A model generated the notes under the pieces. The model was given only the letters and a program-made list of their open reading frames with translations, was not told the origin of the DNA and made no database searches. DNA of 64,000 bases from an uncultured Candidatus Saccharibacteria bacterium (lineage in GTDB: Bacteria; Patescibacteriota; Minisyncoccia; Phycocordibacterales; PALSA-1337), in the NCBI GenBank assembly GCA_964416985.1, contig CAYQFS010000001.1:83413-147412 (forward strand). Reading direction: 5' to 3'. How positions within the stretch are numbered: position 1 is the first letter of the stretch; the number at the start of each line of letters is the position of its first letter. This document shows, in pieces, positions 8,673-56,299 of the stretch. The translations under genes and the position numbers were made by a program.

Positions 8673-9527
8673 ATGAAAAAATACGCACCAACAACCCCAT
8701 CACGACGCCACCTTACTACGCTTCCATACGGTAAGTATGTTACTACCCAGGATCCGTACAAGCCTCTCACAAAGGGAATGAAGCGTGACATGGGACGAAA
8801 TGCGTCTGGACGAATCACTGTTCGTCACAAGGGGGGAGGAAACAGCAAGCTCTACCGAATGATCGACTTTTCATACGACAAAAAGAACATGTTTGCGACA
8901 ATCAAGACTGTCGAATATGATCCATACCGAACAGGGTACATCGCTCTTGTTCAGTACGAAGACGGAGAACGACGGTACATTCTCATTCCAAAGACGATGA
9001 AGGTTGGAGACAAATTCATTGTTTCTGAAACAGCTCTCGTTGAAGTCGGAAACAGACTTCCTCTCAAGCGAATTCCTGTGGGTACTTTTGTTTTTAATAT
9101 CGAAGTACGACCAGGAGGGGGATCAAAGATGGTTCGGTCAGCGGGATCATTTGCTCAGGTCATCGCAAACGATGCTCCGTACACTCACCTCAAACTTCCT
9201 TCAACTGAAATCCGAAAAGTTCATGACAATGCATGGGCAACTATTGGTACAGTTTCAAACGAGGAATCTCGCCTCGTAAATATTGGAAAGGCAGGACGTT
9301 CACGATGGATGGGTATCCGCCCAACCGTCCGAGGTTCCGCTCAGAACCCTGTAGACCATCCTTACGGAGGAGGAGAACAGCGAACCGGTCGAGGTTTGCG
9401 CCGACTCAAGACCCGATGGGGTAAGCCGGCTGGAAAGGGTCAGAAGACTCGAACACCGAAGAAGTACTCAAACGTGTTCATTGTCTCTCGACGCCGAGTG
9501 GGCAAGAATAAGTCAGTAGAGCAATAA
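8673..9527 (+). CDS. rplB: 50S ribosomal protein L2
   Basis: 284 aa, GGGxxxKxYR and L2-like C-terminal motifs (...HPYGGGEQRT). Confidence 0.95.
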   Translation: MKKYAPTTPSRRHLTTLPYGKYVTTQDPYKPLTKGMKRDMGRNASGRITVRHKGGGNSKLYRMIDFSYDKKNMFATIKTVEYDPYRTGYIALVQYEDGERRYILIPKTMKVGDKFIVSETALVEVGNRLPLKRIPVGTFVFNIEVRPGGGSKMVRSAGSFAQVIANDAPYTHLKLPSTEIRKVHDNAWATIGTVSNEESRLVNIGKAGRSRWMGIRPTVRGSAQNPVDHPYGGGEQRTGRGLRRLKTRWGKPAGKGQKTRTPKKYSNVFIVSRRRVGKNKSVEQ

Positions 9528-9615
9528 TCACCAATGTTTGAACGTCACCTTAAAAAATTAATCAAGAAGATCAACTGGCTCCTCGAGCGATTCTTTGATT
9601 ATATCAGCCCATAAG

Positions 9616-9643
9616 TTGACTTTAAGCCACGGTTTGCTAGTAT
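9616..9643 (+). promoter_or_regulatory. internal sigma70-like promoter in the unusual 142-nt rplB-rpsS gap (TTGACT - 16 nt - TGcTAGTAT)
   Basis: TTGACT at 9616-9621, TAGTAT at 9638-9643 preceded by TGC. Near-identical to the tuf promoter. Confidence 0.45.
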
Positions 9644-9669
9644 TTGGAAGCTTTATTACATAAAAACAC

Positions 9670-10017
9670 ATGTCAAGATCCCTCAAAAAAGGACCATACG
9701 TCGAAGAACGACTTCTCGCGAAGATCGCCGGAAAGAAACCCATAGAAACTGGGGTTATTAAGACATGGTACCGACGAAGCCAGATTGCCCCTGAAATGGT
9801 AGGGTTCAATTTTGGCGTCTACAATGGGAAGCAGCATATTGAGGTTCTTGTCACCGAGGAAATGGTTGGTCACCGCCTCGGTGAGTTCTCGCCTACACGA
9901 AAATTCATCCGACACGGAGGAAAGATGCAGAAGGAGATTGAGATGAAGGCAAAGGAGGCTGAAGTTAATGCTGCAAAGTCAGCAAAGGAGGCAGCGGCTG
10001 CTCCAGCAAAAAAATAA
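9670..10017 (+). CDS. rpsS: 30S ribosomal protein S19 (K/A-rich C-terminal tail)
   Basis: [11 protein letters not shown]... matches S19. Extra C-terminal [19 protein letters not shown]. Confidence 0.93.
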
Positions 10018-19033: not shown

Positions 19034-19804
19034 ATGATACAGCTTAAAGGAAAAGAAGATATACAGATTCTCCGCGAAGGGGGAAAAATTACTGCAGGAG
19101 TGATGCAGAAGCTAGTTGCCATGGTCAAGCCAGGGCTTGTTACGAGTGAACTCGAAGTGGCTGCAAGAAAACTGATAAAGGAAGCAGGAGCAGAATCATC
19201 AATTCTCGACTACCAGCCCTACGGAGCTGATCGACCTTTTCCTGCGGCAATTTGTGTTTCAGTAAATGACGAAGTGGTTCACGGAATCCCGAATGAGAAT
19301 CCTATTACCCTCAAAGAAGGAGATGTTGTAACAATCGATGTAACGCTCACCTACAAAGAAATGGTTACTGATATGGCAATGACAGTGCCGGTGGGAAAGG
19401 TTTCTTCAGACATCGAGAGACTCATCAAGGGGACGAAAGAAGCCCTTATGGCGGGGATAAAGGCGGCCAAAGGGGGGAAGAGAATAGGGGATATAAGCTC
19501 GGCTATTGAGCTTGTAGGGCTTTCACACAAGCTTGGTGTGGTAGAGGAACTCGCAGGGCATGGAGTAGGTTTTAGCGTACACGAGGAGCCATTTGTACCA
19601 AACTACGGTGAACCCGGAAAAGGTGAAGTTTTGAAACCAGGACTTGTTATTGCAATTGAGCCGATGTTTAATCTTGGTTCACGCCATGTGCAGCTCGATC
19701 CTGATGGATACACCTATCGGACAGAAGATGGGAAGCCAAGTGCGCATTTTGAACACACCGTTCTCATCACAAAAGGAGACGCGGAGATACTGACTTTGCT
19801 ATAA
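19034..19804 (+). CDS. map: methionine aminopeptidase type I
   Basis: 256 aa, MetAP pita-bread fold motifs. Confidence 0.9.
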   Translation: MIQLKGKEDIQILREGGKITAGVMQKLVAMVKPGLVTSELEVAARKLIKEAGAESSILDYQPYGADRPFPAAICVSVNDEVVHGIPNENPITLKEGDVVTIDVTLTYKEMVTDMAMTVPVGKVSSDIERLIKGTKEALMAGIKAAKGGKRIGDISSAIELVGLSHKLGVVEELAGHGVGFSVHEEPFVPNYGEPGKGEVLKPGLVIAIEPMFNLGSRHVQLDPDGYTYRTEDGKPSAHFEHTVLITKGDAEILTLL

Positions 19805-19811
19805 TAGATTC

Positions 19812-26259: not shown

Positions 26260-26675
26260 TGGTGGAGATGGGCGGAATTGAACCGCCGTGCAGTTGAAGT
26301 TTCATGATGCTTCTACAATGTGTAGCTAGCTTTAGCGAGATCTCTCTCTTTTGACCTGCATGCTTGAAAGCAAGCAAAACACATGCAGGCGATTCCCCAA
26401 GTTTCGGATTACAAGCAGGGAAGAGAATGTAATCCACGTCGGAGGTTATATCAACTCATCACAGCTTCCGATGCGAAGTGAGAGCCGTCGCCTAAGGCAG
26501 AGTTTAAGCTGCGTAAGCGAAAGCAAGGTCCTGTGTTCCAAAATATGGAGACACGAGAGACTTTACCTTTGCAACTGATGATTTTGCAGTTACGGTGTCC
26601 GTTAGTTTTAAGAGGTAACGGAACTCTACATTGCGCGGCATGAAGGGACCCCAGCTGTCGAGGCCTTTCATCCCC
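26260..26675 (-). ncRNA. ssrA: tmRNA (SsrA)
   Basis: 5' end GGGGAUGAAAGGCCUCGACAGCUGGGG (compare E. coli GGGGCUGAUUCUGGAUUCGACGGG). 3' end GGUUCAAUUCCGCCCAUCUCCACCA, with the acceptor pairing 5'-GGGGAUG with CAUCUCC-3'. Internal tag ORF ends ...LAFAYAA-UAA. smpB is immediately upstream on the same strand. Confidence 0.85.
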
Positions 26676-26711: not shown

Positions 26712-27161
26712 TTAACGATCTGAAAATTCTCTTCGAATCTCTCGGTCGGTGTCGCGCTTCCTGATGTCCTGGCGCTTATCAAATTTCTTTTTACCACGGA
26801 CAACAGCGATTTCAACCTTGATTTTCTTACCTTTATTATACAGCGAAATAGGCACTATTGTCAATCCTTTCTTTGAATCGAGTGCCGCGAGCTTTGCAAT
26901 CTCAGCTTTTGTAAGGAGAATGCGGCGATTTCTTTTTGGATCATAGGAGTCGGGAGTGTTTTTAATTTGATACGGGGCAATGCTTGCTCCAATCATGAAC
27001 GCTTCGCCACCGCGCACAGTTATGTGAGAACCGAGGAGGGAGCCCTGGTTTGTACGGAGGCTTTTGACTTCGATTCCAAGAAGCTCAATACCAGCCTCGA
27101 ATGTTTCGAGGATTTCGTAATCAAGCGACATTTTCTTGTTGTAGGCGAGTGATTCGGCCAT
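26712..27161 (-). CDS. smpB: SsrA-binding protein SmpB
   Basis: 149 aa; DYEILETFEAGIELLGIEVKSLR matches the SmpB core, with a basic C-terminal tail. Confidence 0.92.
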   Translation of the reverse strand: MAESLAYNKKMSLDYEILETFEAGIELLGIEVKSLRTNQGSLLGSHITVRGGEAFMIGASIAPYQIKNTPDSYDPKRNRRILLTKAEIAKLAALDSKKGLTIVPISLYNKGKKIKVEIAVVRGKKKFDKRQDIRKRDTDREIRREFSDR

Positions 27162-27299
27162 AATGATGACGTTCTCCAGTATACATTACTCTGACATTTC
27201 TTTCATTTTTAGTTGATTCTTGCTTTTAAAAAATAATTGCCAGACCGTGTGTGTGCCGGTCTGGCAAAAGATTCGTTCTGATGATTCAGTGATCAGTGA

Positions 27300-27563
27300 T
27301 CAGTGATTAGGGTGATACAGGTCACTTGCGAGCATGCTCGCAACTTCTGCATTACCCGTCAACACACTTGTCGTGGTTTCTCCACCAAATGCTAACGTGA
27401 TCAGCAGAATGATAATCGCGATTGCGTAACAAATCTGACGATTTATTCTTGACTTGCTCCGGCGTCGGAGACGTCGACCTTGACGTCTCCGGGAGCGCTC
27501 CATATTTGCTAAGTCAAGTGGTGTGCCAGAGTTGAAGTCTGGCGGCAGTTCATACGTTGCCAT
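27300..27563 (-). CDS. small hypothetical membrane protein
   Basis: 87 aa with an Arg-rich segment (RSRRRQGRRLRRRSKSR), then one TM helix. (TCAGTGA)x3 tandem heptamer overlapping the stop codon. Confidence 0.4.
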   Translation of the reverse strand: MATYELPPDFNSGTPLDLANMERSRRRQGRRLRRRSKSRINRQICYAIAIIILLITLAFGGETTTSVLTGNAEVASMLASDLYHPNH

Positions 27564-27733
27564 GTTTTTCCTTCCTGTGATGTTGTTACTGTTGTTTCTG
27601 ACAACATACTAGCATATTAAAGTATAATGTCAATAGGTGGTAGTATGTTTAAAAGTGGATAACAAACGTATTAAAAGATGATCATAAAAGAGCATATTTC
27701 CCTTAGGTGAGGCTATTGTAGGTAGTGTATTCA

Positions 27734-27742
27734 TGGTATAAT
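27734..27742 (+). promoter_or_regulatory. extended -10 promoter element (TGgTATAAT) for the large surface protein gene
   Basis: Perfect TGnTATAAT 20 nt upstream of ATG 27762. Confidence 0.5.
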
Positions 27743-27761
27743 TTGGTGACTGATAATAGCC

Positions 27762-30700
27762 ATGAAACATTCCTGGATCAAGAAGATTTTTATCGCATCC
27801 TTTTTCATAGTAGTTTTCTTGTCTCCTCTTAGTAATGTACGTGCTGATATTACCTCGAGCTTTCTTGGTCACTGGACATTTGATACTACTAACACGAATT
27901 GGGGCACTAATACAACATCTGACACATCCAGTAATGGGTATAATGGTACATTAACTAATTTTTATTCTGCGACGAGTACTGTTGTTGGGCAGCTCAATCA
28001 AGGTCTCTATTTTGATGGTGTCGATGATAAAGTAAGTCTCCCAACATCAGTTGTTGGCAGTAGTATAACACTTTCTGCATGGATAAAGCCTGCGGTGGTT
28101 AACAAGGAGCAACGCATCATTAACTACCATAACCGGTATCGACTCGAACTTTCTGATAATGGAAAACTATACTGTGCATTTCATACTGTAAATCAGTCAT
28201 GGAACTTCTGTAGTACTCTCGGAAATACCACACTTGTAGCGAATCGTTGGTACCACGTCGCTGTAACATACGATGGATCGTCGACGTATACGTATTATCT
28301 AAATGGAGTCGCAAACGGAAGTAACTCATCTCAATTTACTGGGGCATTAACTGGAGGGTCACTTACTCCTTGTATTGGTGATGCCTGTGGAGATGGAAAT
28401 ACTACAGCTTTTTTTAAGGGATCAATGGATGATGTCAACATCTACAGTCGAGCCCTTTCTTCTGGCGATATGCTTGAGTTGTATACTTCTGCTTTTGTAC
28501 CCACCATCACTACCTCCGATGCATCTTCCATCACCGCTACAACTGCCACTCTCAATGGTTCGATAGATGTTGCCAATGCCGCCTCCTCAACAATCCGAGG
28601 ATTTGCTTATGGGACGAGCGCAACACTTTCTACGGTAATAGCTACTACAACCGAGAGTGGGATATTTGATTCGGGAGCATTTACTTCAGCTGTTTCCGGT
28701 CTTACAGGAAATACGACATATTATGTACGAGCATATGCGTCAAATGCTACATCGACAGGGTATGGAACTATCAAATCTTTCACCACCTCTGTGGCTGTGG
28801 TTGTCCCTACAGTGACAGTTCAGTCGGCTTCCTCAATTACTGCAACTATGGTTACCCTGAATGGGACAATGACGTCTGATGGGAATGCTTCCTCTACTGT
28901 ACGAGGCTTTGCATATGGGACAGATACTAGTTACAGTCTGGGAACAACTACCGAGAATGGTACCTTTGCAATAGGTTCTTTCACAAGTAGCATCTCTTCT
29001 CTCACGTGTAATACGACGTATCATGTGCGTGCATACTCTACAAATTCGGCGGGAACAGGCTTTAGCGGCGATCAGACATTTTTAACAAGCCCATGTGTTC
29101 CAGGAAATCCAACCTCCGTTGTTGCTGTAGCGGGGAATGGTCAGGCGACTATATCATTTACTATTCCTGGAAGTGATGGGGGGTCTACGATTTTGTACTA
29201 CACTGCATCTTCGACCCCAGGAACCCAAGCTGGTTACGGGACTTCTCCGATTACAGTCTCGGGACTTTCAAATGGAACCACATATACATTTACTGTAACT
29301 GCTACAAATGCAGTTGGGACAAGTACCGCAAGTTCTGCATCAAACTCGATAACTCCTTCTACAACACCCACCATCACTACCTCCGACGCATCTTCCATCA
29401 CCGCTACAACTGCCACTCTCAATGGTTCGATAGATGCTCTCGGGGGAGCTTCTGTTACTGATCGTGGTTTTGAATGGGGTACTAATAATGCTTATGGAAA
29501 TAGTATTTCAACAAACGGCAGTTACTCGGTAGGAACATATAATGCAGATCTTTCTGGTTTGACGTGTAATACTGAATATCATGTACGAGCATTTGCAACT
29601 AACTCTGTCGGGACTGCTTCATCAAGCGATTCTTCTTTTACAACTTCTGCCTGCCCGGTATCATCTACTCCTTCCTCAAGCAGCGGTAGTTCTTCGGGCG
29701 GTGGGGGGAGATCAGGATTTGTTCAAATACTTCCCACCCCTTCTCTTGTTACAAAAGTTTTTGATATCATTACCCCTTCTTTTCTAAAGCCTAAAGTAGT
29801 TCCTGCCGCTGTTGCTCCCATCATAGAAATTAAAAACCCTCTTGACGGGTCGTGGAAACTTCTTCCTCAAGAGCCAGTGAAATCTTTTGTCCTTGCTCCA
29901 TTACCTGAGGAAGTGCTCGTTCTCACTGCCAAGTTTCCTGAATTAGAAAAGACGTTCAAAACACTTGGTATTACCAAGGTAAGTGATCTCGGTAAACTTA
30001 AAAATGCAAGTATCAATCTACCCAACTTGAGTGCACGAGTAGGTGCTAATGGGGCAGTTCCAATTGGTTCTTTAACTCCAGATCAGAAGAAGATGCTTCC
30101 GACCGAAGTTGTTTTTGCAAGATCGGGTACTGTTGATTATAACGTAGGACTTACTGTAAATAACGGAAATCCTGAACAGCAGGTAAAAACAATTGTTGGA
30201 AAGCCACTCGATCTTGCCATTAAAGCCGATAAACCCGTTAAAGAAATAAAAGGTTACTTGACCGTGAAAAACATCGAAAGAAAGTCTGTTTCAAGGCCTA
30301 TCCCTTCCGATTCAATGCTTGCTTCAGTCGTTGCTGCGATATTACCAACACCACATCCACGGACTGAAGGGGTTGAAGTAGAACAAAAACTTGTTCTTCA
30401 GGAATTTAATTATAGTGATGATAATAATGACGGGATTTACACTGCCCAAGTTCAGACTCCCTTACTTAAGGGTGAATACGATATTATTTCAGTAATGCAG
30501 TATCGGGATATTAAATTAGGTTCCAAAGAGTTTCATTTGACAACTGTCGTTGATCCGGAAGGATATATTTATCGTGATAGTGGTAATGGAGAAGAGACTC
30601 GTATTCATGACGCTACTGTCACTATTTTTCAAAAGAATCTTAGTACATCAGATTTTGAATTATGGCCGGCAAATAATTTCCAACAGACAAATCCTCAATT

Positions 30701-30893
30701 GACGGATAAGAGCGGAACTTACTCGTTCCTTGTTCCTGAAGGTATTTACAAAATTACTGTATCTGCACCTGGTTACGAGGATTATATAGGCAGTGAGTTC
30801 TCTGTTGTACAGGGTGGGGGAGTACATACAAACATTGTTCTCAAGCCGAAAGGTGTGTGGAATCGTTTCTTGCGTTCAATAAAATTAAATTAG
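27762..30893 (+). CDS. large secreted/surface protein: signal peptide, LamG (concanavalin A-like) domain, ~5 tandem Fn3-like repeats, C-terminal carboxypeptidase-regulatory-like beta-sandwich
   Basis: 1043 aa. N-terminal signal peptide (MKHSWIKKIFIASFFIVVFLSPLSNVRA). LamG-like block (...YFDGVDDKV...LSAWIKP...WYHVAVTYDG...). Repeated ~95-aa units with SSITATTATLNGSID...YYVRAYASNA..G.G..SFTTS. G/S-rich linker. C-terminal DATVTIFQKN...GTYSFLVPEGIYKITVSAPGYEDY. Confidence 0.75.
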   Translation: MKHSWIKKIFIASFFIVVFLSPLSNVRADITSSFLGHWTFDTTNTNWGTNTTSDTSSNGYNGTLTNFYSATSTVVGQLNQGLYFDGVDDKVSLPTSVVGSSITLSAWIKPAVVNKEQRIINYHNRYRLELSDNGKLYCAFHTVNQSWNFCSTLGNTTLVANRWYHVAVTYDGSSTYTYYLNGVANGSNSSQFTGALTGGSLTPCIGDACGDGNTTAFFKGSMDDVNIYSRALSSGDMLELYTSAFVPTITTSDASSITATTATLNGSIDVANAASSTIRGFAYGTSATLSTVIATTTESGIFDSGAFTSAVSGLTGNTTYYVRAYASNATSTGYGTIKSFTTSVAVVVPTVTVQSASSITATMVTLNGTMTSDGNASSTVRGFAYGTDTSYSLGTTTENGTFAIGSFTSSISSLTCNTTYHVRAYSTNSAGTGFSGDQTFLTSPCVPGNPTSVVAVAGNGQATISFTIPGSDGGSTILYYTASSTPGTQAGYGTSPITVSGLSNGTTYTFTVTATNAVGTSTASSASNSITPSTTPTITTSDASSITATTATLNGSIDALGGASVTDRGFEWGTNNAYGNSISTNGSYSVGTYNADLSGLTCNTEYHVRAFATNSVGTASSSDSSFTTSACPVSSTPSSSSGSSSGGGGRSGFVQILPTPSLVTKVFDIITPSFLKPKVVPAAVAPIIEIKNPLDGSWKLLPQEPVKSFVLAPLPEEVLVLTAKFPELEKTFKTLGITKVSDLGKLKNASINLPNLSARVGANGAVPIGSLTPDQKKMLPTEVVFARSGTVDYNVGLTVNNGNPEQQVKTIVGKPLDLAIKADKPVKEIKGYLTVKNIERKSVSRPIPSDSMLASVVAAILPTPHPRTEGVEVEQKLVLQEFNYSDDNNDGIYTAQVQTPLLKGEYDIISVMQYRDIKLGSKEFHLTTVVDPEGYIYRDSGNGEETRIHDATVTIFQKNLSTSDFELWPANNFQQTNPQLTDKSGTYSFLVPEGIYKITVSAPGYEDYIGSEFSVVQGGGVHTNIVLKPKGVWNRFLRSIKLN

Positions 30894-30898
30894 ATAAT

Positions 30899-31276
30899 AT
30901 GAAGAATATGTTTACAAAAAATTCCTTCATGATCATAGCTATTGGGGTACTTGCAATTACAACAATTTTGTATTCTATAAAAAGTTACTCCTTGGCGCAG
31001 AGACTTGCAGAAATGGAAAAAAATCTCCAACCACAGGTTGCTCACACGGAGATTGCGAAGTTTACGAAATTATTTATTGATAAAGTTTTGAATGCAGAAG
31101 GTTCGGTAAGTTTTGACACAAGACTTGAGCTAGAGAATGCTGTACGTGCGACGAGAGATGATGAGCTTTTATCTCAGTGGAATGCCTTTGTGAATAGTAA
31201 GACAGAAGCAGAGGCACAGACTCAAGTTAAAAGATTGTTGGCTATGTTGGTAACAAAGATTGTTCCAGCTCAATAA
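30899..31276 (+). CDS. membrane-anchored hypothetical protein (N-terminal TM + helical domain)
   Basis: Start chosen at MKNMFTKNSF... right after the upstream stop (ORF track gives 30857). 126 aa. Confidence 0.45.
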   Translation: MKNMFTKNSFMIIAIGVLAITTILYSIKSYSLAQRLAEMEKNLQPQVAHTEIAKFTKLFIDKVLNAEGSVSFDTRLELENAVRATRDDELLSQWNAFVNSKTEAEAQTQVKRLLAMLVTKIVPAQ

Positions 31277-31330
31277 ATAAAAAAGCCCCGAAAAAATTCG
31301 GGGCTGTGAAAGGGGGCTATAAGCCTCCCG
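31271..31330. terminator. tandem hairpin terminators between convergent genes
   Basis: AGCCCCGAA-aaaa-TTCGGGGCT perfect hairpin (31284-31305) with A-tract upstream, which is a T-tract on the minus strand. Second hairpin GGGGGCT-ata-AGCCTCC (31312-31329). Confidence 0.6.
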
Positions 31331-31343
31331 ATTCTAATTTATT

Positions 31344-33512
31344 TTACTGATGGCCAAGGAGCCATGAAGGTAGGGCGGTACCTCGTACTGCCTGCTTTCG
31401 ATTAATTTCTTCAACCGCGACCTCTTTCTTCACTCTTTCAACAATGCGGTCATCGATGAATGTTTTTTCTCCGACGAGATACTCGGGGAGACCGAAGGGG
31501 TTGAAAGGTAATGGAGGAGCATCTGGGTGCGTCAATGAATATTTTGACACCGTTGGGTCACCATTTTCCTTACCATCCAGAATCGTACCAATTTCTATTA
31601 GCTGTTGGCGAGCCATTTTTCGTGACTCGGATTGAGATGATTTTAGTGTGTAGCTTTGTTGCATCATCATCTGTTGTCCCGATTGGTATGAACCACTTGG
31701 CCAGACTGTTCGGAAGAATAGTGTCTGGCGATTGTTAACTGCGATTGCGGCTACCGCTTTTCGCAGCGGTCCTACAACAACCGTTGCCTCGACTGTCCAA
31801 GGACCATCGATGCTCTCTGCGACAAGTACGTCGTTCGTGGTATTTGGGATTGAGTGTACCACCAGATAGTTCGTCGTCCGGTCGAGAGTGAGTCCGTTGT
31901 AGTTGATAGGATCATCGTACACGTAGTTGGTGATTGCTGGCCCAAATGGCCCTTCAACAAGGGGATACCATTCCCGACTCAGATTCCAGAACGTGTTCGA
32001 ACTGGCTTTGTTGAGGGCGAAACCTTCACCGACAGCAAGTTGTGGCATTGTTGGCCACCACGAGTTACTTGTATACATGTAATTCGTGTATGTCCCGCTT
32101 GTGGGAAGGTATTGGTATAAGATGTCACCTTCAGTCACGGGTAACTTAAAACTCTCAGGATTTCCTGCCCGTGGATAAGGATATGACAGAATACTTTCGT
32201 GGTCGAGGATTTCACGTCCTATTCCTCCTTGTAAAACACGTCCTGCAAATGTGACAGAGATAGTGCTTCCTGAGGGGTTCGAAACCAGAGCTGCTTCTCC
32301 TGCAACAAGTTTGTCATTAGGGATAGTCCAGTTTGTTCCATCCCATATGTTTGTCGTCCATGTAGACCCGTACGACTTTTCAACCCTGCTTCCCGCAGGT
32401 AACTTGTAGAAGAGTTTCTTAATTCGAGGATCCATCACCGAAAACTGATTTGCGACAAGTGCTTTCTTGCCTGCAGCGATGGAAACCGTGTAGTACCCAA
32501 TAATATTCGAGACATCATTGGTTGATCTTATCCTGAAGTACAGGTTACTCGCTCCACCACTATAAACGTTCAGGGACATGATACCGTTTGTGGTAGAGTT
32601 TGCTGAACTTGATATTGTCGTCGACACTATAGTCCAATCTTGGGAGAGCAGATTGGTCTTTGATTCAAGGATGTAGGTTGTGCCTTCCGTTACCCATCCG
32701 AGTTTCAATGTCAGTAACTCATTTTGCCCAACAACATTTACTCCTTTAGGCAGACCTTGCTGCCATAAGCTAATTGTGTGTTTTTGAATTCCTATTGCTG
32801 GCTGAGCAAAGACATTTGTCACGATTATTGCAAGTGGGTTAGTACTTACCACTTTCACATCCCACGTTGCGATACTTGTATTTGAAGCTTTGTACGCTGT
32901 GGTTGCTGAGCCGTTTGTCCCTTTTACTGTAAAGGCAGCAAAAGGCCGACTGAGATGATCCATAAAAGGATCGTATAGTATGCTCACTGTCGCTTCGTTA
33001 GTTACTGATAAGCCGAAGCCATCAGGTGAATTGCCTAGACCCACATCACTTGAACCTCCAGATGAGTTATTTGTGGATGCTGCAATTTCCATGAAGTTTA
33101 ATGGAGGGTAGTACGGGTCCCCTGGACCAGAAGGAATGTGACCGCCATAGACGACCGGTGGGTCTGGCTGCATCCAGTCGTCGAATATACCACCGAAGTC
33201 TGGATCAAATGATGGTATGATCGGTGGCGGTTCATTGTTTGTGTAATTTGGGTATGATGGTTTTCCCGAAGGGAAATCGGGAGGAAAGGTGGGTGGTTCG
33301 TATGGAGGGCTATTGGTTTTTCCACTATTGATCTCGTCGATCAGGTTACTCGAAACTTCAGAGATCAAGTTTGTGAAGTCGTTGTTTAGTGTGTTGGTGA
33401 CGCCCACGTAGGGATCTGTGTATGTGGGGACACCTAGTGCCTGATTTAACCAACCAGTAACAATTAATGTTACCACAATGCTCATGAGAGCGTTCAACGG
33501 ATTTCGTTTCAT
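31344..33512 (-). CDS. large secreted hypothetical protein, Pro-rich N-terminal region
   Basis: Start chosen at MKRNPLNALMSIVVTLIVTGWLNQALG (signal peptide) with an AAAGGAAG RBS; ORF-track start 33650 rejected. 723 aa. PPYEPPTFPPDFPSGKPSYP low-complexity region, then S/T/N-rich beta-rich body. No known catalytic motif. Confidence 0.6.
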   Translation of the reverse strand: MKRNPLNALMSIVVTLIVTGWLNQALGVPTYTDPYVGVTNTLNNDFTNLISEVSSNLIDEINSGKTNSPPYEPPTFPPDFPSGKPSYPNYTNNEPPPIIPSFDPDFGGIFDDWMQPDPPVVYGGHIPSGPGDPYYPPLNFMEIAASTNNSSGGSSDVGLGNSPDGFGLSVTNEATVSILYDPFMDHLSRPFAAFTVKGTNGSATTAYKASNTSIATWDVKVVSTNPLAIIVTNVFAQPAIGIQKHTISLWQQGLPKGVNVVGQNELLTLKLGWVTEGTTYILESKTNLLSQDWTIVSTTISSSANSTTNGIMSLNVYSGGASNLYFRIRSTNDVSNIIGYYTVSIAAGKKALVANQFSVMDPRIKKLFYKLPAGSRVEKSYGSTWTTNIWDGTNWTIPNDKLVAGEAALVSNPSGSTISVTFAGRVLQGGIGREILDHESILSYPYPRAGNPESFKLPVTEGDILYQYLPTSGTYTNYMYTSNSWWPTMPQLAVGEGFALNKASSNTFWNLSREWYPLVEGPFGPAITNYVYDDPINYNGLTLDRTTNYLVVHSIPNTTNDVLVAESIDGPWTVEATVVVGPLRKAVAAIAVNNRQTLFFRTVWPSGSYQSGQQMMMQQSYTLKSSQSESRKMARQQLIEIGTILDGKENGDPTVSKYSLTHPDAPPLPFNPFGLPEYLVGEKTFIDDRIVERVKKEVAVEEINRKQAVRGTALPSWLLGHQ

Positions 33513-33729
33513 TTGCTTCCTTTCATCTGACCTGTTTTGGTTGTACCCCCTTGTAAAGGAAAGACCATCGGGGGGTAATGCGATGGTCGGCTGGCTATCA
33601 AATAACAAAATAACCAATCTAAAATTGAGGGTATCATAAAATAAGTCCATCGACCATTGACAGATTGGGAAACATGTCCTCCGTTGGAAAACTGTTTTCT
33701 TTCATTTTCCCCAATTTATCGTATAATCA

Positions 33730-35658
33730 ATGCCTATGAAGAAACACAATGACCCGCAAGGAGAAAAGGGAAAAAAGGGACAGAAGAAGCCCTCGAAACT
33801 TCGCTTTTTGAATACGATTTCCACAGCAATTCTCATCCTTTTCCTCATCACTGGATTTTATTCAATTCTTGTCGACCAGACGGCTGAGAAAAATCTTATT
33901 CCACTTTCAGAACTTGTTCACGATGTTGGTATGGGTAAAGTCACAGCTATTACTGTTCAGGGAAATACGCTTATTGCAGAATACGAAGACAAGGCGACCA
34001 AGATTTCCAAAAAGGAAACCGACGCTTCTGTCACAGAGACATTTACAAGTTATGGATTGACTCCTGAAAAGTTGAACGCAGTTAAAATTTCGATTGAAGG
34101 ACCGAGTGGGTTCTGGTTCTGGGTCGGACAGCTTGCACCCTTCATTGCACCTCTTTTCTTTTTAGCGCTCATTATTTGGTTTTTGACGCGGCAAGTGAGA
34201 GGTCAGGGAGGACTTCAGGCCTTCTCATTTGGTCAGTCGAAGGCCCGCATCACATTGCCAGACGACAAAAAGCAGAAAGTAACATTCAAGGATGTTGCTG
34301 GAGCAAAAGAAGCAAAGCAGGAACTTTCAGAAATCGTGGATTTTTTGAGAAATCCAAAAAAGTTTTTGGAAATTGGTGCGGTTATTCCAAAAGGAATTCT
34401 TCTCATGGGAGCTCCAGGAACTGGAAAGACCCTGCTCGCGCGAGCGGTGGCTGGAGAAGCGGGTGTGGCGTTCTTTGCTATTTCTGGATCTGAGTTTGTA
34501 GAAATGTTTGTGGGAGTTGGAGCATCGAGAGTCCGGGATCTCTTTAAAATTGCAAAGGAAAGTGCACCAGCAATTATTTTTGTTGATGAAATTGATGCAG
34601 TTGGGCGAGTGCGAGGGACGGGAGTTGGGGGAGGAAATGATGAGAGGGAACAGACATTGAACCAGATCCTTGTTGAGATGGACGGATTCGAGCCAAATGA
34701 GAAAGTGATTGTCATGGCTGCAACAAACAGACCTGATGTTCTTGATCCAGCACTTCTTCGACCAGGGCGATTTGACCGTCGGGTGACTATTGACCTTCCT
34801 GATCGAAATGATCGCGAGGAAATTTTGAAAATACATTCCGCAAAGAAACCTTTTGCTGAAGATGTCGCCCTTCGAGTCATTGCCGAGAGAACTCCGGGAT
34901 TTTCTGGTGCCGACCTCTATTCTCTTATGAATGAAGGAGCGATTCTTGCTGCTCGGGAAAATAGGACAAAAGTCTCTCAGTATGATCTCATTCGCGCTAT
35001 TGAAAAAGTAATGCTCGGGCCTGAGAGGAAAAGTCATCTTTTGTCTAAAAAAGAGAAAGAAATTACTGCGTATCATGAAGCAGGTCATGCTCTCGTTGCC
35101 TCAGTTCTTCCATTTGCTGATCCAGTTCACAAGATTTCAATTATTTCTCGGGGACGGGCTGCTGGATATACTTTGCACCTTCCTCTCGAAGATCGTAAGA
35201 TGCAATCAAAGAGGGAATTTCTCGATGACATCGCTGTCTCTCTCGGAGGCTACGTCGTGGAAAAAATGATGTTTGGAGATGTCACTACCGGCCCTTCAAA
35301 TGATCTCCAGGTTTCAACGGCTCTCGCTCGTGACATGGTTACGAAATATGGAATGTCAGAAAAGATCGGAGTCCTTGCTCTCGAAGGTTCTGGAGGTCGG
35401 GCGATGTTTGGAAAGGGAGTGGAAGACAGGGAATATTCTGAAAAAGTTGGAGCTGATATCGACAGTGAAGTCGCTCGTATTATGAAAGAAGGGTTTGAGA
35501 AAGCAGAAAAGATTGTGACTGAAAATAAAAAGGCCCTCGACGCTATTGCCCGAAGACTTGTCGAAGTCGAGACGATCGAAAGAGAAGAGTACGAGTCAAT
35601 CATCATTGCTCATGGGATTCAGCCAAAGAAAAAGCTCGACATTGAACATCAGTCGTAA
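33730..35658 (+). CDS. ftsH: ATP-dependent zinc metalloprotease FtsH
   Basis: N-terminal TM, AAA+ Walker [19 protein letters not shown] zinc site. Confidence 0.97.
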
Positions 35659-36634: not shown

Positions 36635-36708
36635 GCGCCTTTAGCTCAGTTGGTTAGAGCACAGAGCTTATACCTCTGGGGTCCTTGGTTCGAATCCAAG
36701 AAGGCGCA
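36635..36708 (+). tRNA. tRNA-Ile (anticodon UAU)
   Basis: Cloverleaf: acceptor GCGCCTT/AAGGCGC; D-arm GCTC-AGTTGGTTA-GAGC; anticodon stem CAGAG/CTCTG with loop CT-TAT-AC; T-arm CTTGG-TTCGAAT-CCAAG; discriminator A. CCA not encoded. Confidence 0.85.
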
Positions 36709-36710
36709 CA

Positions 36711-48335: not shown

Positions 48336-48410
48336 ACCTTAGCAAACTGAAATGAAGAAAAAATAAAATTCTAGCAGTGGAGGGTTGATTCGTGTGATAT
48401 AATTAAAACC

Positions 48411-52943: not shown

Positions 52944-52981
52944 TGGAGAGGTGGTAACGACTCCTGTGATATAATAAACAC

Positions 52982-55724: not shown

Positions 55725-55733
55725 TGCTATAAT
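55725..55733 (+). promoter_or_regulatory. extended -10 element TGcTATAAT upstream of major pilin gene
   Basis: Seen directly at 55725-55733, ~55 nt upstream of ATG 55788. Confidence 0.45.
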
Positions 55734-56290: not shown

Positions 56291-56299
56291 TGTTATAAT
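56291..56299 (+). promoter_or_regulatory. extended -10 TGtTATAAT positioned for a leaderless transcript of the second pilin gene
   Basis: TATAAT ends 6 nt before ATG 56306; the predicted TSS coincides with the A of the ATG. Confidence 0.4.

What the first reader, a model, noticed from the sequence alone, without database searches (positions are those of the whole stretch)
27734..33512. Surface-protein locus: 1043-aa LamG plus Fn3-repeat protein, membrane-anchored partner, and convergent 723-aa Pro-rich secreted protein
Three genes with secretion signals and no metabolic function occupy ~5.8 kb. They have their own strong extended -10 promoter and paired hairpin terminators. The first gene combines a lectin-like LamG domain, about five Fn3-like repeats and a CarboxypepD_reg-like C-terminal beta-sandwich, an adhesin-like architecture. 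The convergent protein has a PPxxPP-rich stalk followed by a large S/T/N-rich beta domain with no known motif. In an organism with a reduced genome and a type IV pilus cluster 15 kb away, these are prime candidates for host/cell-surface attachment factors. That is inference only.
Basis: partly seen in the sequence, partly recalled or inferred. Interest (0 to 1): 0.65.

Follow-up and report, generated by a model that had tools for sequence, protein, structure and literature searches.

The report
Accessory surface-protein island in a Taylorbacteria genome
A tiny symbiotic-type bacterium (Candidatus Taylorbacteria) carries a 6.5-kb insert, absent from this spot in its relatives, with genes for non-enzymatic exported proteins. 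They look like cell-surface binding proteins, a kind already suspected in this group, and their role is untested.

Summary
Three real genes lie at the stated coordinates:
- a 1043-aa protein with a signal peptide, LamG domain, four Fn3-type repeats and a CarboxypepD_reg-like end;
- a 125-aa single-pass membrane protein starting 5 nt after it;
- a convergent 722-aa protein with a signal peptide and a Pro-rich region.

An extended -10 motif and two hairpins are present. No catalytic domain was found by sequence or fold.

The organism is a Candidatus Taylorbacteria-like Patescibacterium. In its closest relatives smpB and ftsH are adjacent. Here 6.5 kb (27162-33729) sits between them, so this is an accessory island, not a conserved locus.

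The three genes are not one conserved unit. The 722-aa family occurs alone elsewhere. The small membrane protein, however, was found only directly downstream of genes ending in the same ~390-aa C-terminal module (10 of 10 informative loci). That module carries interchangeable heads and usually a C-terminal membrane anchor, which this copy lacks.

The 722-aa protein is not motif-free. It contains an unannotated ~175-aa beta domain. Outside the Taylorbacteria-type family, every hit a source assigns to an organism (four) is from Verrucomicrobiota.

An adhesin role is plausible but remains inference. LamG proteins are already proposed as CPR adhesins, so this is a modest variant of a known kind.

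The parts
27162..33729 (.). 6.5-kb accessory island between smpB (26712-27161, -) and ftsH (33730-35658, +)
   Evidence: In 13 of 24 related Paceibacteria loci smpB and ftsH are divergent neighbours less than 200 bp apart, including the two closest (FtsH 85% and 84% identical). Seven others hold unrelated accessory genes of 0.8-1.8 kb there. There is no GC anomaly and there are no flanking direct repeats.
27300..27563 (-).
   Evidence: ORF. A TTGACA-16-TG-TAGTAT promoter-like site lies at 27633-27606 on the minus strand. A GC-rich hairpin followed by a T-run lies at about 27237-27267 (sequence). No homologs were found in 80 related loci and there is no PHROG hit.
27734..27742 (+). Extended -10 motif TGGTATAAT, 20 nt upstream of the ATG of the 1043-aa gene
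   Evidence: Sequence. The motif is enriched 8 vs 1.4 expected in the window. Function is not tested. There is no clear -35 element or Shine-Dalgarno sequence.
27762..30893 (+). Gene for the 1043-aa secreted modular protein (LamG head, four Fn3-type repeats, S/G linker, conserved C-module)
   Evidence: The signal peptide MKHSWIKKIFIASFFIVVFLSPLSNVRA|D was read by eye; hydrophobic window.
28014..28463 (+). LamG / concanavalin A-like lectin domain (aa 85-234)
   Evidence: Pfam PF13385, E = 2.2e-27, 96.5 bits vs a cutoff of 27.6.
28491..29657 (+). Four tandem Fn3-type beta-sandwich repeats (aa 244-343, 346-445, 446-536, 537-632)
   Evidence: Pfam fn3 on aa 452-527. The other three repeats are 51-54% identical to each other and 34-38% to the canonical one. 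NCBIfam and PHROG hits fall only on these repeats.
28499..28569 (+). First copy of a 71-nt, 99% identical direct repeat inside the repeat region
   Evidence: family D2. The spacing of 867 nt equals 289 codons and is in frame, so this is a substrate for repeat-number change by recombination.
29366..29436 (+). Second copy of the 71-nt direct repeat
29727..30890 (+). Conserved C-terminal module (aa ~656-1043). It is always at the extreme C-terminus of Patescibacteria proteins with different heads.
   Evidence: Local BLASTP and alignment against 11 other proteins at 37-53% identity. Heads are LamG, Gly_rich_2, Rax2 propeller, PATR-like repeats and GWINF repeats. The AlphaFold model shows tandem beta-sandwiches at low-to-moderate confidence. 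The nearest solved structures are Gram-positive pilins and adhesins.
30684..30845 (+). CarboxypepD_reg / transthyretin-like beta-sandwich (aa 975-1028)
   Evidence: Pfam PF13620, E = 8.6e-8, 32.9 bits vs 32.3. Foldseek matches carboxypeptidase D transthyretin-like domains.
30849..30890 (+). Short amphipathic basic/aromatic tail (GVWNRFLRSIKLN) in place of the C-terminal TM helix of more distant homologs
   Evidence: Homologs in L095-L097, L099-L101 and L106 end with a TM helix plus a basic tail. TM-less relatives end in similar W/F-rich tails. The model predicts a helix here.
30899..31276 (+). Gene for the 125-aa single-pass membrane protein (TM aa ~9-27, then a helical domain). It is the partner of the C-module.
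   Evidence: It starts 5 nt after the stop of the big gene. Homologs at 33-47% identity lie directly downstream of a C-module gene in 10 of 10 loci with enough upstream DNA. No Pfam family matches.
31284..31305 (.). Hairpin 1 between the convergent genes, T-run on the minus strand
31312..31329 (.). Hairpin 2 between the convergent genes, T-rich tail on the plus strand
31344..33512 (-). Gene for the 722-aa exported protein: signal peptide or anchor, Pro-rich disordered region, chain of beta-sandwich domains, C-terminal helices
   Evidence: NCBI annotates it from 33650 as 768 aa.
33093..33311 (-). Pro-rich segment (aa 68-140), predicted disordered
   Evidence: Composition. pLDDT is below 50 for aa 1-139. 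The same compositional feature appears in homologs P0125 and P0126.
31977..32510 (-). Conserved, unannotated ~175-aa beta domain (aa 335-512)
   Evidence: The exhaustive HMMER search gave 457 cluster representatives at E <= 1e-3. pLDDT is 95-98. There is no Pfam, NCBIfam or PDB sequence match. Of the top 148 representatives, 60 are standalone small proteins and 63 of the 88 longer ones carry it at the extreme C-terminus.

Best explanation
This is a lineage-specific accessory island in a Candidatus Taylorbacteria-like (Patescibacteria/CPR) genome. It sits in the variable smpB-ftsH intergenic spot and encodes non-enzymatic, exported, cell-surface-type binding proteins. It holds two independent units, not one system.

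**Unit 1: a two-gene operon**
- The 1043-aa protein is exported by Sec. It has a lectin-like LamG head, four Fn3-type spacer domains and a flexible S/G linker.
- It ends in a ~390-aa conserved C-module of beta-sandwiches, the last one transthyretin-like. In more distant homologs this module ends in a transmembrane anchor. Here it ends in a short amphipathic basic tail.
- The tightly linked 125-aa protein is a single-pass membrane protein. It is probably N-in with its helical domain outside.
- This small protein is found only next to C-module genes. It most likely holds, positions or helps assemble the C-module at the membrane. The Fn3 array then projects the LamG head outward to bind a glycan or protein ligand.

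**Unit 2: the convergent 722-aa protein**
- It is an unrelated exported protein. A Pro-rich, disordered wall-spanning segment follows its N-terminal signal or anchor.
- A chain of beta-sandwich domains follows. One is a ~175-aa domain that also occurs in many extracellular proteins outside this family; the four that a source assigns to an organism are from Verrucomicrobiota. There it is usually the extreme C-terminal domain or a standalone secreted protein.

**Shown**
- The genes, the domains and the absence of any detected catalytic domain.
- The insertion relative to related genomes.
- The gene-pair conservation.

**Inferred**
- Surface location, the anchoring role of the small protein, and ligand or host-cell binding.
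For: **Genes and domains**
- Genes and signals.
- LamG, fn3 and CarboxypepD_reg.
- No catalytic family in Pfam, NCBIfam or PHROGs.
- AlphaFold models plus Foldseek give only Ig/Fn3 chains, Gram-positive pilins and adhesins (BcpA, PilA, RrgA, UafA) and transthyretin-like domains.

**Island**
- The organism is Taylorbacteria-like, with FtsH 85% and 84% identical to L001 and L012.
- smpB and ftsH are adjacent in the closest relatives, while 6.5 kb separates them here.
- Other relatives carry unrelated accessory genes at the same spot.

**C-module and partner**
- The C-module is always C-terminal in 11 other proteins with different heads.
- A small-protein homolog lies immediately downstream of a C-module gene in L091, L092, L095-L101 and L106.
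- A C-terminal TM anchor is present in L095-L097, L099-L101 and L106 and absent here.

**722-aa family**
- It has a full-length homolog, P0125 (35% identity, E = 3e-102), and Candidatus Taylorbacteria homologs in the P0126 cluster (31% identity for P0126), all in different genomic contexts.
- Its ~175-aa domain co-occurs with Ig, cadherin-like, Big and Fn3 domains and with subtilase and M36 peptidase domains in other proteins.

**Literature**
- LamG and concanavalin-like proteins are already proposed as CPR attachment factors (PMC11310336, PMC12911398).
Against: - There is no experimental evidence for location, ligand or function.
- The big protein here has no TM anchor, LPXTG motif or known wall-binding domain, so it could simply be released.
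- The small partner is missing downstream of four of seven independently sampled C-module genes (L093, L104, L105, L107). It is therefore not required for the module.
- The C-module model has low confidence (mean pLDDT 58), and all fold matches have low TM-scores.
- LamG and ConA-like domains also serve as carbohydrate-binding modules of enzymes.
- Only about 20 kb of each related genome was inspected. The island genes could therefore exist elsewhere in those genomes.
Confidence: 0.6

Rival explanations
1. Nutrient capture rather than cell attachment. The LamG head and the beta-sandwich domains act as carbohydrate-binding modules. They would trap polysaccharide or debris at the cell surface, or work with separately encoded hydrolases, to feed an auxotrophic cell.
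For: - PF13385 belongs to the concanavalin A-like lectin/glucanase superfamily.
- Some relatives combine LamG with a pectate-lyase-like beta-helix (P0085) or with sialate esterase-type or PG_binding domains.
- The ~175-aa domain of the 722-aa protein sits at the C-terminus of subtilases and an M36 peptidase in other organisms.
- PMC12911398 also discusses this reading.
Against: - No hydrolase domain lies in or next to the island.
- The architecture of head, spacers and anchor module is that of a display protein.
- This rival differs from the main explanation only in the ligand.
Confidence: 0.15
2. Envelope structural proteins. The S/T-rich beta-sandwich proteins would be components or accessories of an S-layer-like coat, and the small membrane protein would be its membrane tether. 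There would be no specific ligand binding.
For: - The proteins are large, S/T/N-rich and all-beta, with export signals.
- The C-module is membrane-proximal and conserved across many Patescibacteria.
Against: - The island is absent from this position in relatives, and no close orthologs exist among 5.8 billion proteins (best 40% identity over the full length). A core coat protein should be conserved.
- No SLH or other S-layer family matched in the Pfam and NCBIfam scans.
- Interchangeable heads on one module suggest variable binding functions.
Confidence: 0.12
3. Cargo or remnant of a mobile element or prophage. The LamG protein would be a phage- or element-encoded receptor-binding or host-modifying protein left behind after integration next to smpB/ssrA.
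For: - Related LamG + C-module genes sit beside serine recombinases, Bro-N, RhuM, AbiEi and SocA-type genes in L093, L104, L105 and L106.
- CPR phages are reported to encode LamG proteins (PMC11310336).
- The island lies next to smpB and tmRNA. Established knowledge: ssrA is a classic integration site.
- There is a PHROG minor-tail hit on one Fn3-type repeat.
Against: - There is no recombinase, phage structural gene or flanking direct repeat in or around the island.
- The insert is upstream of smpB, not at the 3' end of the tmRNA gene.
- GC content is unremarkable.
- No relatives of the small protein or the C-module were found in IMG/VR.
- The PHROG hit covers only a generic Ig-like repeat.
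Confidence: 0.08
4. Polymorphic toxin and immunity pair. The C-terminal module would be a delivered effector and the small downstream membrane protein its immunity factor.
For: The gene order resembles toxin-immunity pairs: a large secreted protein whose C-terminal region is paired with a small, specifically linked downstream gene.
Against: - The polarity is reversed. Here the C-terminal part is conserved and the N-terminal head varies.
- The module is made of beta-sandwiches ending in a transthyretin-like domain, and usually a TM anchor with a basic cytoplasmic tail.
- No toxin family matched.
Confidence: 0.03

Closest known systems
LamG / concanavalin A-like domain surface proteins of CPR (Patescibacteria) and DPANN, proposed attachment factors
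   Same: The organism group is the same. Both have a Laminin_G_3 head, Ig/Fn3-type repeats and an export signal, are large and S/T-rich, and are patchily distributed. More than 1300 relatives were found, including proteins annotated from Candidatus Taylorbacteria and Paceibacterota. The literature treats them as putative adhesins (PMC11310336, PMC12911398).
   Different: Those reports do not, as far as I could find, define the conserved ~390-aa C-terminal module, its optional TM anchor, or its linkage to a small membrane protein. None of these proteins has a demonstrated ligand.
Gram-positive wall-anchored adhesins and pilins (MSCRAMM, BcpA, RrgA, UafA type)
   Same: Both have a modular head, beta-sandwich stalk and anchor layout. 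The C-module model's best solved-structure matches are such proteins, and it ends in a CnaB/transthyretin-like fold. The 722-aa protein has a Pro-rich segment next to its membrane-proximal end.
   Different: There is no LPXTG sorting signal and no pilin YPK motif. Fold matches are weak (TM-score about 0.2). In homologs, anchoring appears to be by a C-terminal TM helix, and here possibly through a partner protein or amphipathic tail.
Extracellular proteins, including four from Verrucomicrobiota, that carry the same ~175-aa beta domain
   Same: They share a significant sequence relationship over aa ~335-510 of the 722-aa protein, E down to 7e-30. In many hits the alignment also begins upstream, at aa ~275-300, and so takes in the preceding small beta-sandwich with an FYR-type ending. 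The Verrucomicrobiota-assigned members are P0127, P0131, P0285 and P0287.
   Different: In the other hits the domain is a standalone ~210-aa secreted protein or the extreme C-terminal domain of large multidomain proteins. In the Taylorbacteria-type family it is internal. It is preceded by a Pro-rich region and followed by another beta-sandwich and, in this copy, a helical tail. Its function is unknown in both groups.
Polymorphic toxin / immunity gene pairs (CdiA-CT/CdiI, Rhs, LXG)
   Same: A large secreted protein is followed at once by a small gene that tracks its C-terminal region.
   Different: The conserved and variable ends are swapped, the C-terminal region is structural with a membrane anchor, and no toxin domain was found.

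Membership tests
Pfam Laminin_G_3 (PF13385), concanavalin A-like lectin/glucanase superfamily | Profile match above the gathering threshold | tested here: met
   96.5 bits vs 27.6, E = 2.2e-27, aa 85-234.
Pfam fn3 (PF00041) | Profile match above the gathering threshold | tested here: met
   38 bits vs 25, aa 452-527. Three further repeats are related to it at 34-38% identity but do not reach the model themselves.
Pfam CarboxypepD_reg (PF13620), transthyretin-like fold | Profile match above the gathering threshold, and fold agreement | tested here: met
   32.9 bits vs 32.3 when the C-terminal 404 aa are scanned alone. This is marginal, and not reported for the full-length protein. Foldseek matches carboxypeptidase D transthyretin-like domains.
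Sortase-anchored Gram-positive surface proteins / pilins | C-terminal LPXTG-type sorting signal (motif, hydrophobic stretch, basic tail); pilin YPKN motif | tested here: not met
   No LP.TG, LP.T[GA] or YPK in the 1043-aa protein, and the 1043-aa protein has no C-terminal hydrophobic stretch. The motif search was not run on the 722-aa protein, which also has no C-terminal hydrophobic stretch.
   None in Pfam, NCBIfam or PHROGs. The NCBIfam arabinanase hit (53.6 bits vs 600) covers only the Ig-like repeats. Foldseek on both models gives only beta-sandwich proteins.
Type IV pilus components or pilus-tip adhesins | Prepilin N-methylation motif, or location inside the pilus gene cluster | tested here: not met
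   No N_methyl match in the three proteins. The pilus cluster is at 51.2-58.1 kb, separated by ftsH, recG, nrdD and other housekeeping genes. In another Taylorbacteria lineage, a 722-aa-family homolog does lie next to a divergent gene with a weak N_methyl hit.
   Homologs of the 722-aa protein lie next to RNase III (L081, L082) or between a pilin-like gene and dnaB (L083-L090), with no LamG or small gene nearby. The LamG + small pairs lack a 722-aa homolog nearby.
C-module + small membrane partner gene pair (defined here) | A small single-pass protein with the F.KLF.DKVL...W..F...KTE..AQ motif directly downstream, on the same strand, of a gene ending in the C-module | tested here: met
   Window: a 5-nt gap. 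In 10 of 10 loci with upstream sequence (L091, L092, L095-L101, L106) the C-module gene lies directly upstream. The converse holds in only 3 of 7 independently sampled C-module genes.
Prophage / integrative element | Integrase or recombinase, phage structural genes, attachment-site repeats | tested here: not met
   No such ORFs in 24.7-36.6 kb. No flanking repeats. No IMG/VR relatives. One PHROG hit, on a generic repeat only.

The most novel reading that the evidence does not exclude
- The ~390-aa C-module plus its dedicated small membrane protein would be a previously undescribed, Patescibacteria-wide display platform. It would hold interchangeable binding heads (LamG, Gly-rich, beta-propeller, PATR, GWINF repeats) at the cell surface.
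- Independently, the 722-aa family's ~175-aa domain would have been acquired from Verrucomicrobiota. That would point to Verrucomicrobiota as partners or hosts of these Taylorbacteria.
Probability: 0.15. Interest if true: 0.65.

Novelty: new variant of a known kind. Interest (0 to 1): 0.38.

Why it matters
- Patescibacteria are thought to live attached to other cells, yet almost none of their attachment machinery has been identified. Hosts are unknown for most lineages, including Taylorbacteria.
- This locus adds another example of the already suspected LamG surface proteins. It also gives two concrete, testable handles:
  1. A conserved C-terminal module with a dedicated small membrane partner. 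This may explain how such proteins are held on a cell that lacks sortase-type signals.
  2. An unannotated extracellular domain also found in Verrucomicrobiota proteins. This could be followed up as a clue to partner organisms.
- The smpB-ftsH gap is a strain-variable spot, so it is a convenient marker for comparing accessory surface repertoires between related genomes.
- If none of this holds, it is an ordinary variable surface-protein island.

Tried and rejected
1. **Orphan status of the 722-aa protein.** Word-indexed searches returned only the protein itself. The second, profile-based search was wasted. The exhaustive HMMER search then found 457 relatives, so the orphan reading was rejected.
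2. **Exact-sequence look-ups.** Look-ups of the window proteins found no contig on record, so the source assembly could not be fetched.
4. **Identifying the ~175-aa domain.** Pfam, NCBIfam and PDB sequence searches all came back empty.
5. **Phage origin.** IMG/VR scans with the small protein and the C-module found nothing. The alignment of the 722-aa family was too divergent to scan with.
6. **Integration scars.** There are no flanking direct or inverted repeats and no GC shift.
7. **Paralogs.** None elsewhere in the window.
8. **Literature.** Searches for Taylorbacteria-Verrucomicrobia links, or for descriptions of the module, found nothing relevant.
9. **Toxin-immunity reading.** Considered and rejected because the conserved and variable ends are reversed.

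Full report
**1. What is in the sequence**

The three ORFs exist as described:
- 27762..30893 (+), 1043 aa.
- A small ORF on the same strand ending at 31276. It is 139 aa from a GTG at 30857, or 125 aa from the ATG at 30899, 5 nt after the upstream stop codon. NCBI annotates 122 aa.
- A convergent ORF, 31344..33650 (-). NCBI calls it 768 aa from 33650.

I favour that start. It puts a typical signal sequence (MKRNPLNALMSIVVTLIVTGWLNQALG) at the N-terminus, as in the full-length homolog P0125.

Other sequence features were confirmed:
- The 1043-aa protein also starts with a signal peptide (…SNVRA|D). The small protein has one hydrophobic helix at aa ~9-27.
- TGGTATAAT lies at 27734-27742. The motif TGNTATAAT occurs 8 times in the window against 1.4 expected.
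- Two stable hairpins lie between the convergent genes, with z-scores of about -5 on either strand.

**2. Domain content**

The 1043-aa protein:
- Pfam gives Laminin_G_3 (aa 85-234, E = 2e-27) and one fn3 (aa 452-527).
- Three more Fn3-type repeats are 51-54% identical to each other and flank the canonical one. That makes four repeats, not about five.
- The C-terminal 404 aa scanned alone match CarboxypepD_reg just above threshold.
- There is no LPXTG or pilin motif.

No catalytic family matches any of the three proteins. The only enzyme name, an arabinanase model, matches through its Ig-like repeat far below its cutoff.

AlphaFold models were made for the 722-aa protein and for the C-terminal 404 aa of the 1043-aa protein:
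- The 722-aa protein has mean pLDDT 66, but 85-98 over aa 250-510, and is all-beta.
- The C-terminal part of the big protein has mean pLDDT 58 and forms tandem beta-sandwiches.
- By Foldseek these resemble only chains of Ig/Fn3 domains, Gram-positive pilins and adhesins (BcpA, PilA, RrgA, UafA), and the transthyretin-like domain of carboxypeptidase D.

**3. Organism and genomic setting**

- The window carries ribosomal protein genes (as inferred from ORF sizes and order, not scanned against a family library), smpB, tmRNA, ftsH, recG, nrdD and the pilus genes.
- FtsH is 85% and 84% identical to those of a Candidatus Taylorbacteria MAG and a related MAG. The next-best matches are all Paceibacteria/Patescibacteria.
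- In those two closest relatives, and in 11 other related loci, smpB and ftsH are divergent neighbours less than 200 bp apart. Seven further loci carry 0.8-1.8 kb of unrelated accessory genes at the same place: patatin-like, oligoendopeptidase, MazF-like and small membrane proteins.
- In the window 6.5 kb (27162-33729) lies there. It holds an 87-aa membrane-protein ORF with its own promoter-like site and hairpin plus the three genes of the finding.
- None of these four genes has a relative in the 80 related loci.

This is an accessory island in a variable intergenic spot. It has no recombinase, no flanking repeats and no GC shift, so how it arrived is unknown.

**4. The 1043-aa protein and its partner**

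- The protein has more than 1300 relatives, mostly through its repeats. The best full-length match is only 40% identical (P0013), and annotated ones come from Candidatus Taylorbacteria and Paceibacterota.
- Its last ~390 aa form a module that recurs at 37-53% identity at the extreme C-terminus of 11 other retrieved proteins. Their N-terminal heads differ: LamG, Gly_rich_2 or a Rax2-type propeller.
- A metagenome scan with the small protein found 10 loci. In all seven with enough upstream DNA, and in L091/L092 and L106, the small-protein homolog (33-47% identity) lies directly downstream of a gene ending in this C-module. The heads again differ (GWINF-type repeats, PATR-like repeats, LamG).
- The converse is weaker. 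Of seven C-module genes sampled independently of the small gene, three have the partner (window, L091, L106) and four do not (L093, L104, L105, L107).
- In L095-L097, L099-L101 and L106 the module ends in a hydrophobic helix followed by a basic tail. That is the layout of a type I membrane anchor.
- The window protein and its closer relatives stop just before that helix, ending in a short amphipathic W/F/R/K-rich tail.

My reading, which is inference:
- The C-module is the envelope-proximal base of a display protein.
- The small protein is probably N-in with its conserved helical domain outside. It would be an accessory that tethers or assembles the module.
- The Fn3 array is a spacer, and the LamG domain is the binding head.

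A 71-nt, 99% identical direct repeat 867 nt apart, in frame, inside the repeat array gives a ready route to repeat-number change.

**5. The 722-aa protein**

- Word-indexed searches found only the protein itself. The exhaustive HMMER search found 457 cluster representatives.
- One full-length homolog is P0125 (35% identity, E = 3e-102). Its contig resembles a CPR genome and the gene lies next to RNase III.
- A second group (31% identity for P0126) comes from Candidatus Taylorbacteria of groundwater. There the gene sits alone between a weak-N_methyl pilin-like gene and dnaB.
- This gene family therefore moves independently of the LamG pair, and the three-gene locus is a juxtaposition.
- The family shares an N-terminal signal, a Pro-rich disordered segment (17 Pro in aa 61-120; pLDDT below 50), beta-sandwich domains with FYR-type endings, and a very confidently modelled ~175-aa domain (aa 335-512).
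- That domain has no Pfam, NCBIfam or PDB sequence match.
- Among the top 148 representatives, 60 are standalone ~210-aa proteins, and the five I read begin with a signal-peptide-like segment. In 63 of the 88 longer proteins the domain is at the extreme C-terminus. The longer proteins also carry Ig, cadherin-like, Big, Fn3, subtilase or M36 domains.
- Every relative outside the Taylorbacteria-type family that a source assigns to an organism is from Verrucomicrobiota: four of four.
- A Pro-rich stretch right after the N-terminal hydrophobic segment fits a wall-spanning stalk of an N-terminally held surface protein. This is inference.

**6. Comparison with what is known**

- LamG and concanavalin-like proteins are already listed among the cell-surface features thought to mediate attachment of CPR bacteria to other cells. 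They are reported even on CPR phages (PMC11310336, PMC12911398).
- The finding is therefore another member of a suspected, but never experimentally tested, class.
- I did not find three things described: the conserved C-module, its optional TM anchor, and its dedicated small membrane partner. The ~175-aa domain is likewise unannotated in Pfam, NCBIfam and PDB sequences, and my literature searches found nothing on it.
- The proteins fail the sortase-anchoring test and are not pilus components.
- A prophage origin is hinted at by the mobile-element genes next to related cassettes elsewhere. Nothing inside this island supports it, and IMG/VR has no relatives.
- A toxin-immunity reading is unlikely because the conserved and variable ends are reversed.

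**7. Verdict**

The architecture is that of exported, non-enzymatic, modular binding proteins, and the locus is variable. Host attachment is still only inference, and the three genes are two independent units.
- Novelty is modest: a new variant of a known kind.
- Interest is 0.38. The main value lies in the testable C-module/partner pairing and the domain shared with Verrucomicrobiota.

Noticed in passing
window 19797-19805, 48395-48403, 52967-52975 (also 27734-27742, 55725-55733, 56291-56299): Perfect extended -10 motifs (TGNTATAAT) are about 6-fold enriched in the window (8 vs 1.4 expected). Three of them end only 6-8 nt before an ATG start codon (19812, 48411, 52982). That would give leaderless or near-leaderless mRNAs in this organism.
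   Followed up: partly
window 36635-36709 (+): A tRNA-Ile with anticodon UAU. This is unusual for bacteria, which normally read AUA with a lysidine-modified CAU tRNA.
   Followed up: no
window 26260-26675 (-): The tmRNA gene lies directly downstream of smpB. ARAGORN predicts a long tag peptide (AKSSVAKVKSLVSPYFGTQDLAFAYAA). The accessory island lies on the other side of smpB, not at the tmRNA 3' end where islands usually integrate.
   Followed up: partly
window 27300-27563 (-), with a promoter-like site at 27606-27633 and a hairpin at about 27237-27267: An 87-aa ORF for a very basic single-pass membrane protein lies inside the island. It has its own strong promoter-like site (TTGACA-16-TG-TAGTAT) and a terminator-like hairpin. 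No homologs were found in the 80 related loci and there is no PHROG match. A 7-nt tandem repeat (TCAGTGA x3) overlaps its 3' end at 27286-27307.
   Followed up: partly
window 33540-33580 (- strand, 5' of the 722-aa gene): An 8-bp inverted repeat (GACCATCG…CGATGGTC) lies in the likely 5' untranslated region of the 722-aa gene. It falls inside the N-terminal extension that NCBI annotates as coding.
   Followed up: no
L106 2501-9107; L105 1-2313; L104 6611-7974; L093 12986-17608: In other Patescibacteria, LamG + C-module genes sit next to serine recombinases and to Bro-N, RhuM, AbiEi and SocA/Panacea-type genes. In L106 two LamG genes are in tandem with the small partner between them. These surface-protein cassettes seem to travel with the mobilome.
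   Followed up: partly
L083-L090, genes at about 8764-9342 and 9503-9808 (L083 coordinates): In groundwater Taylorbacteria, the homolog of the 722-aa protein is divergently adjacent to a 192-aa gene with a weak prepilin N-methylation motif and to a 101-aa gene. This could link the family to pilus-like structures.
   Followed up: no
L095, L096, L100, L101 (N-terminal halves of the C-module genes): Several C-module proteins have heads built from repeated 'GYAWGENIGWINF'-type motifs. These motifs were not scanned against any family library here. They look like another uncharacterised Patescibacteria surface repeat.
   Followed up: no
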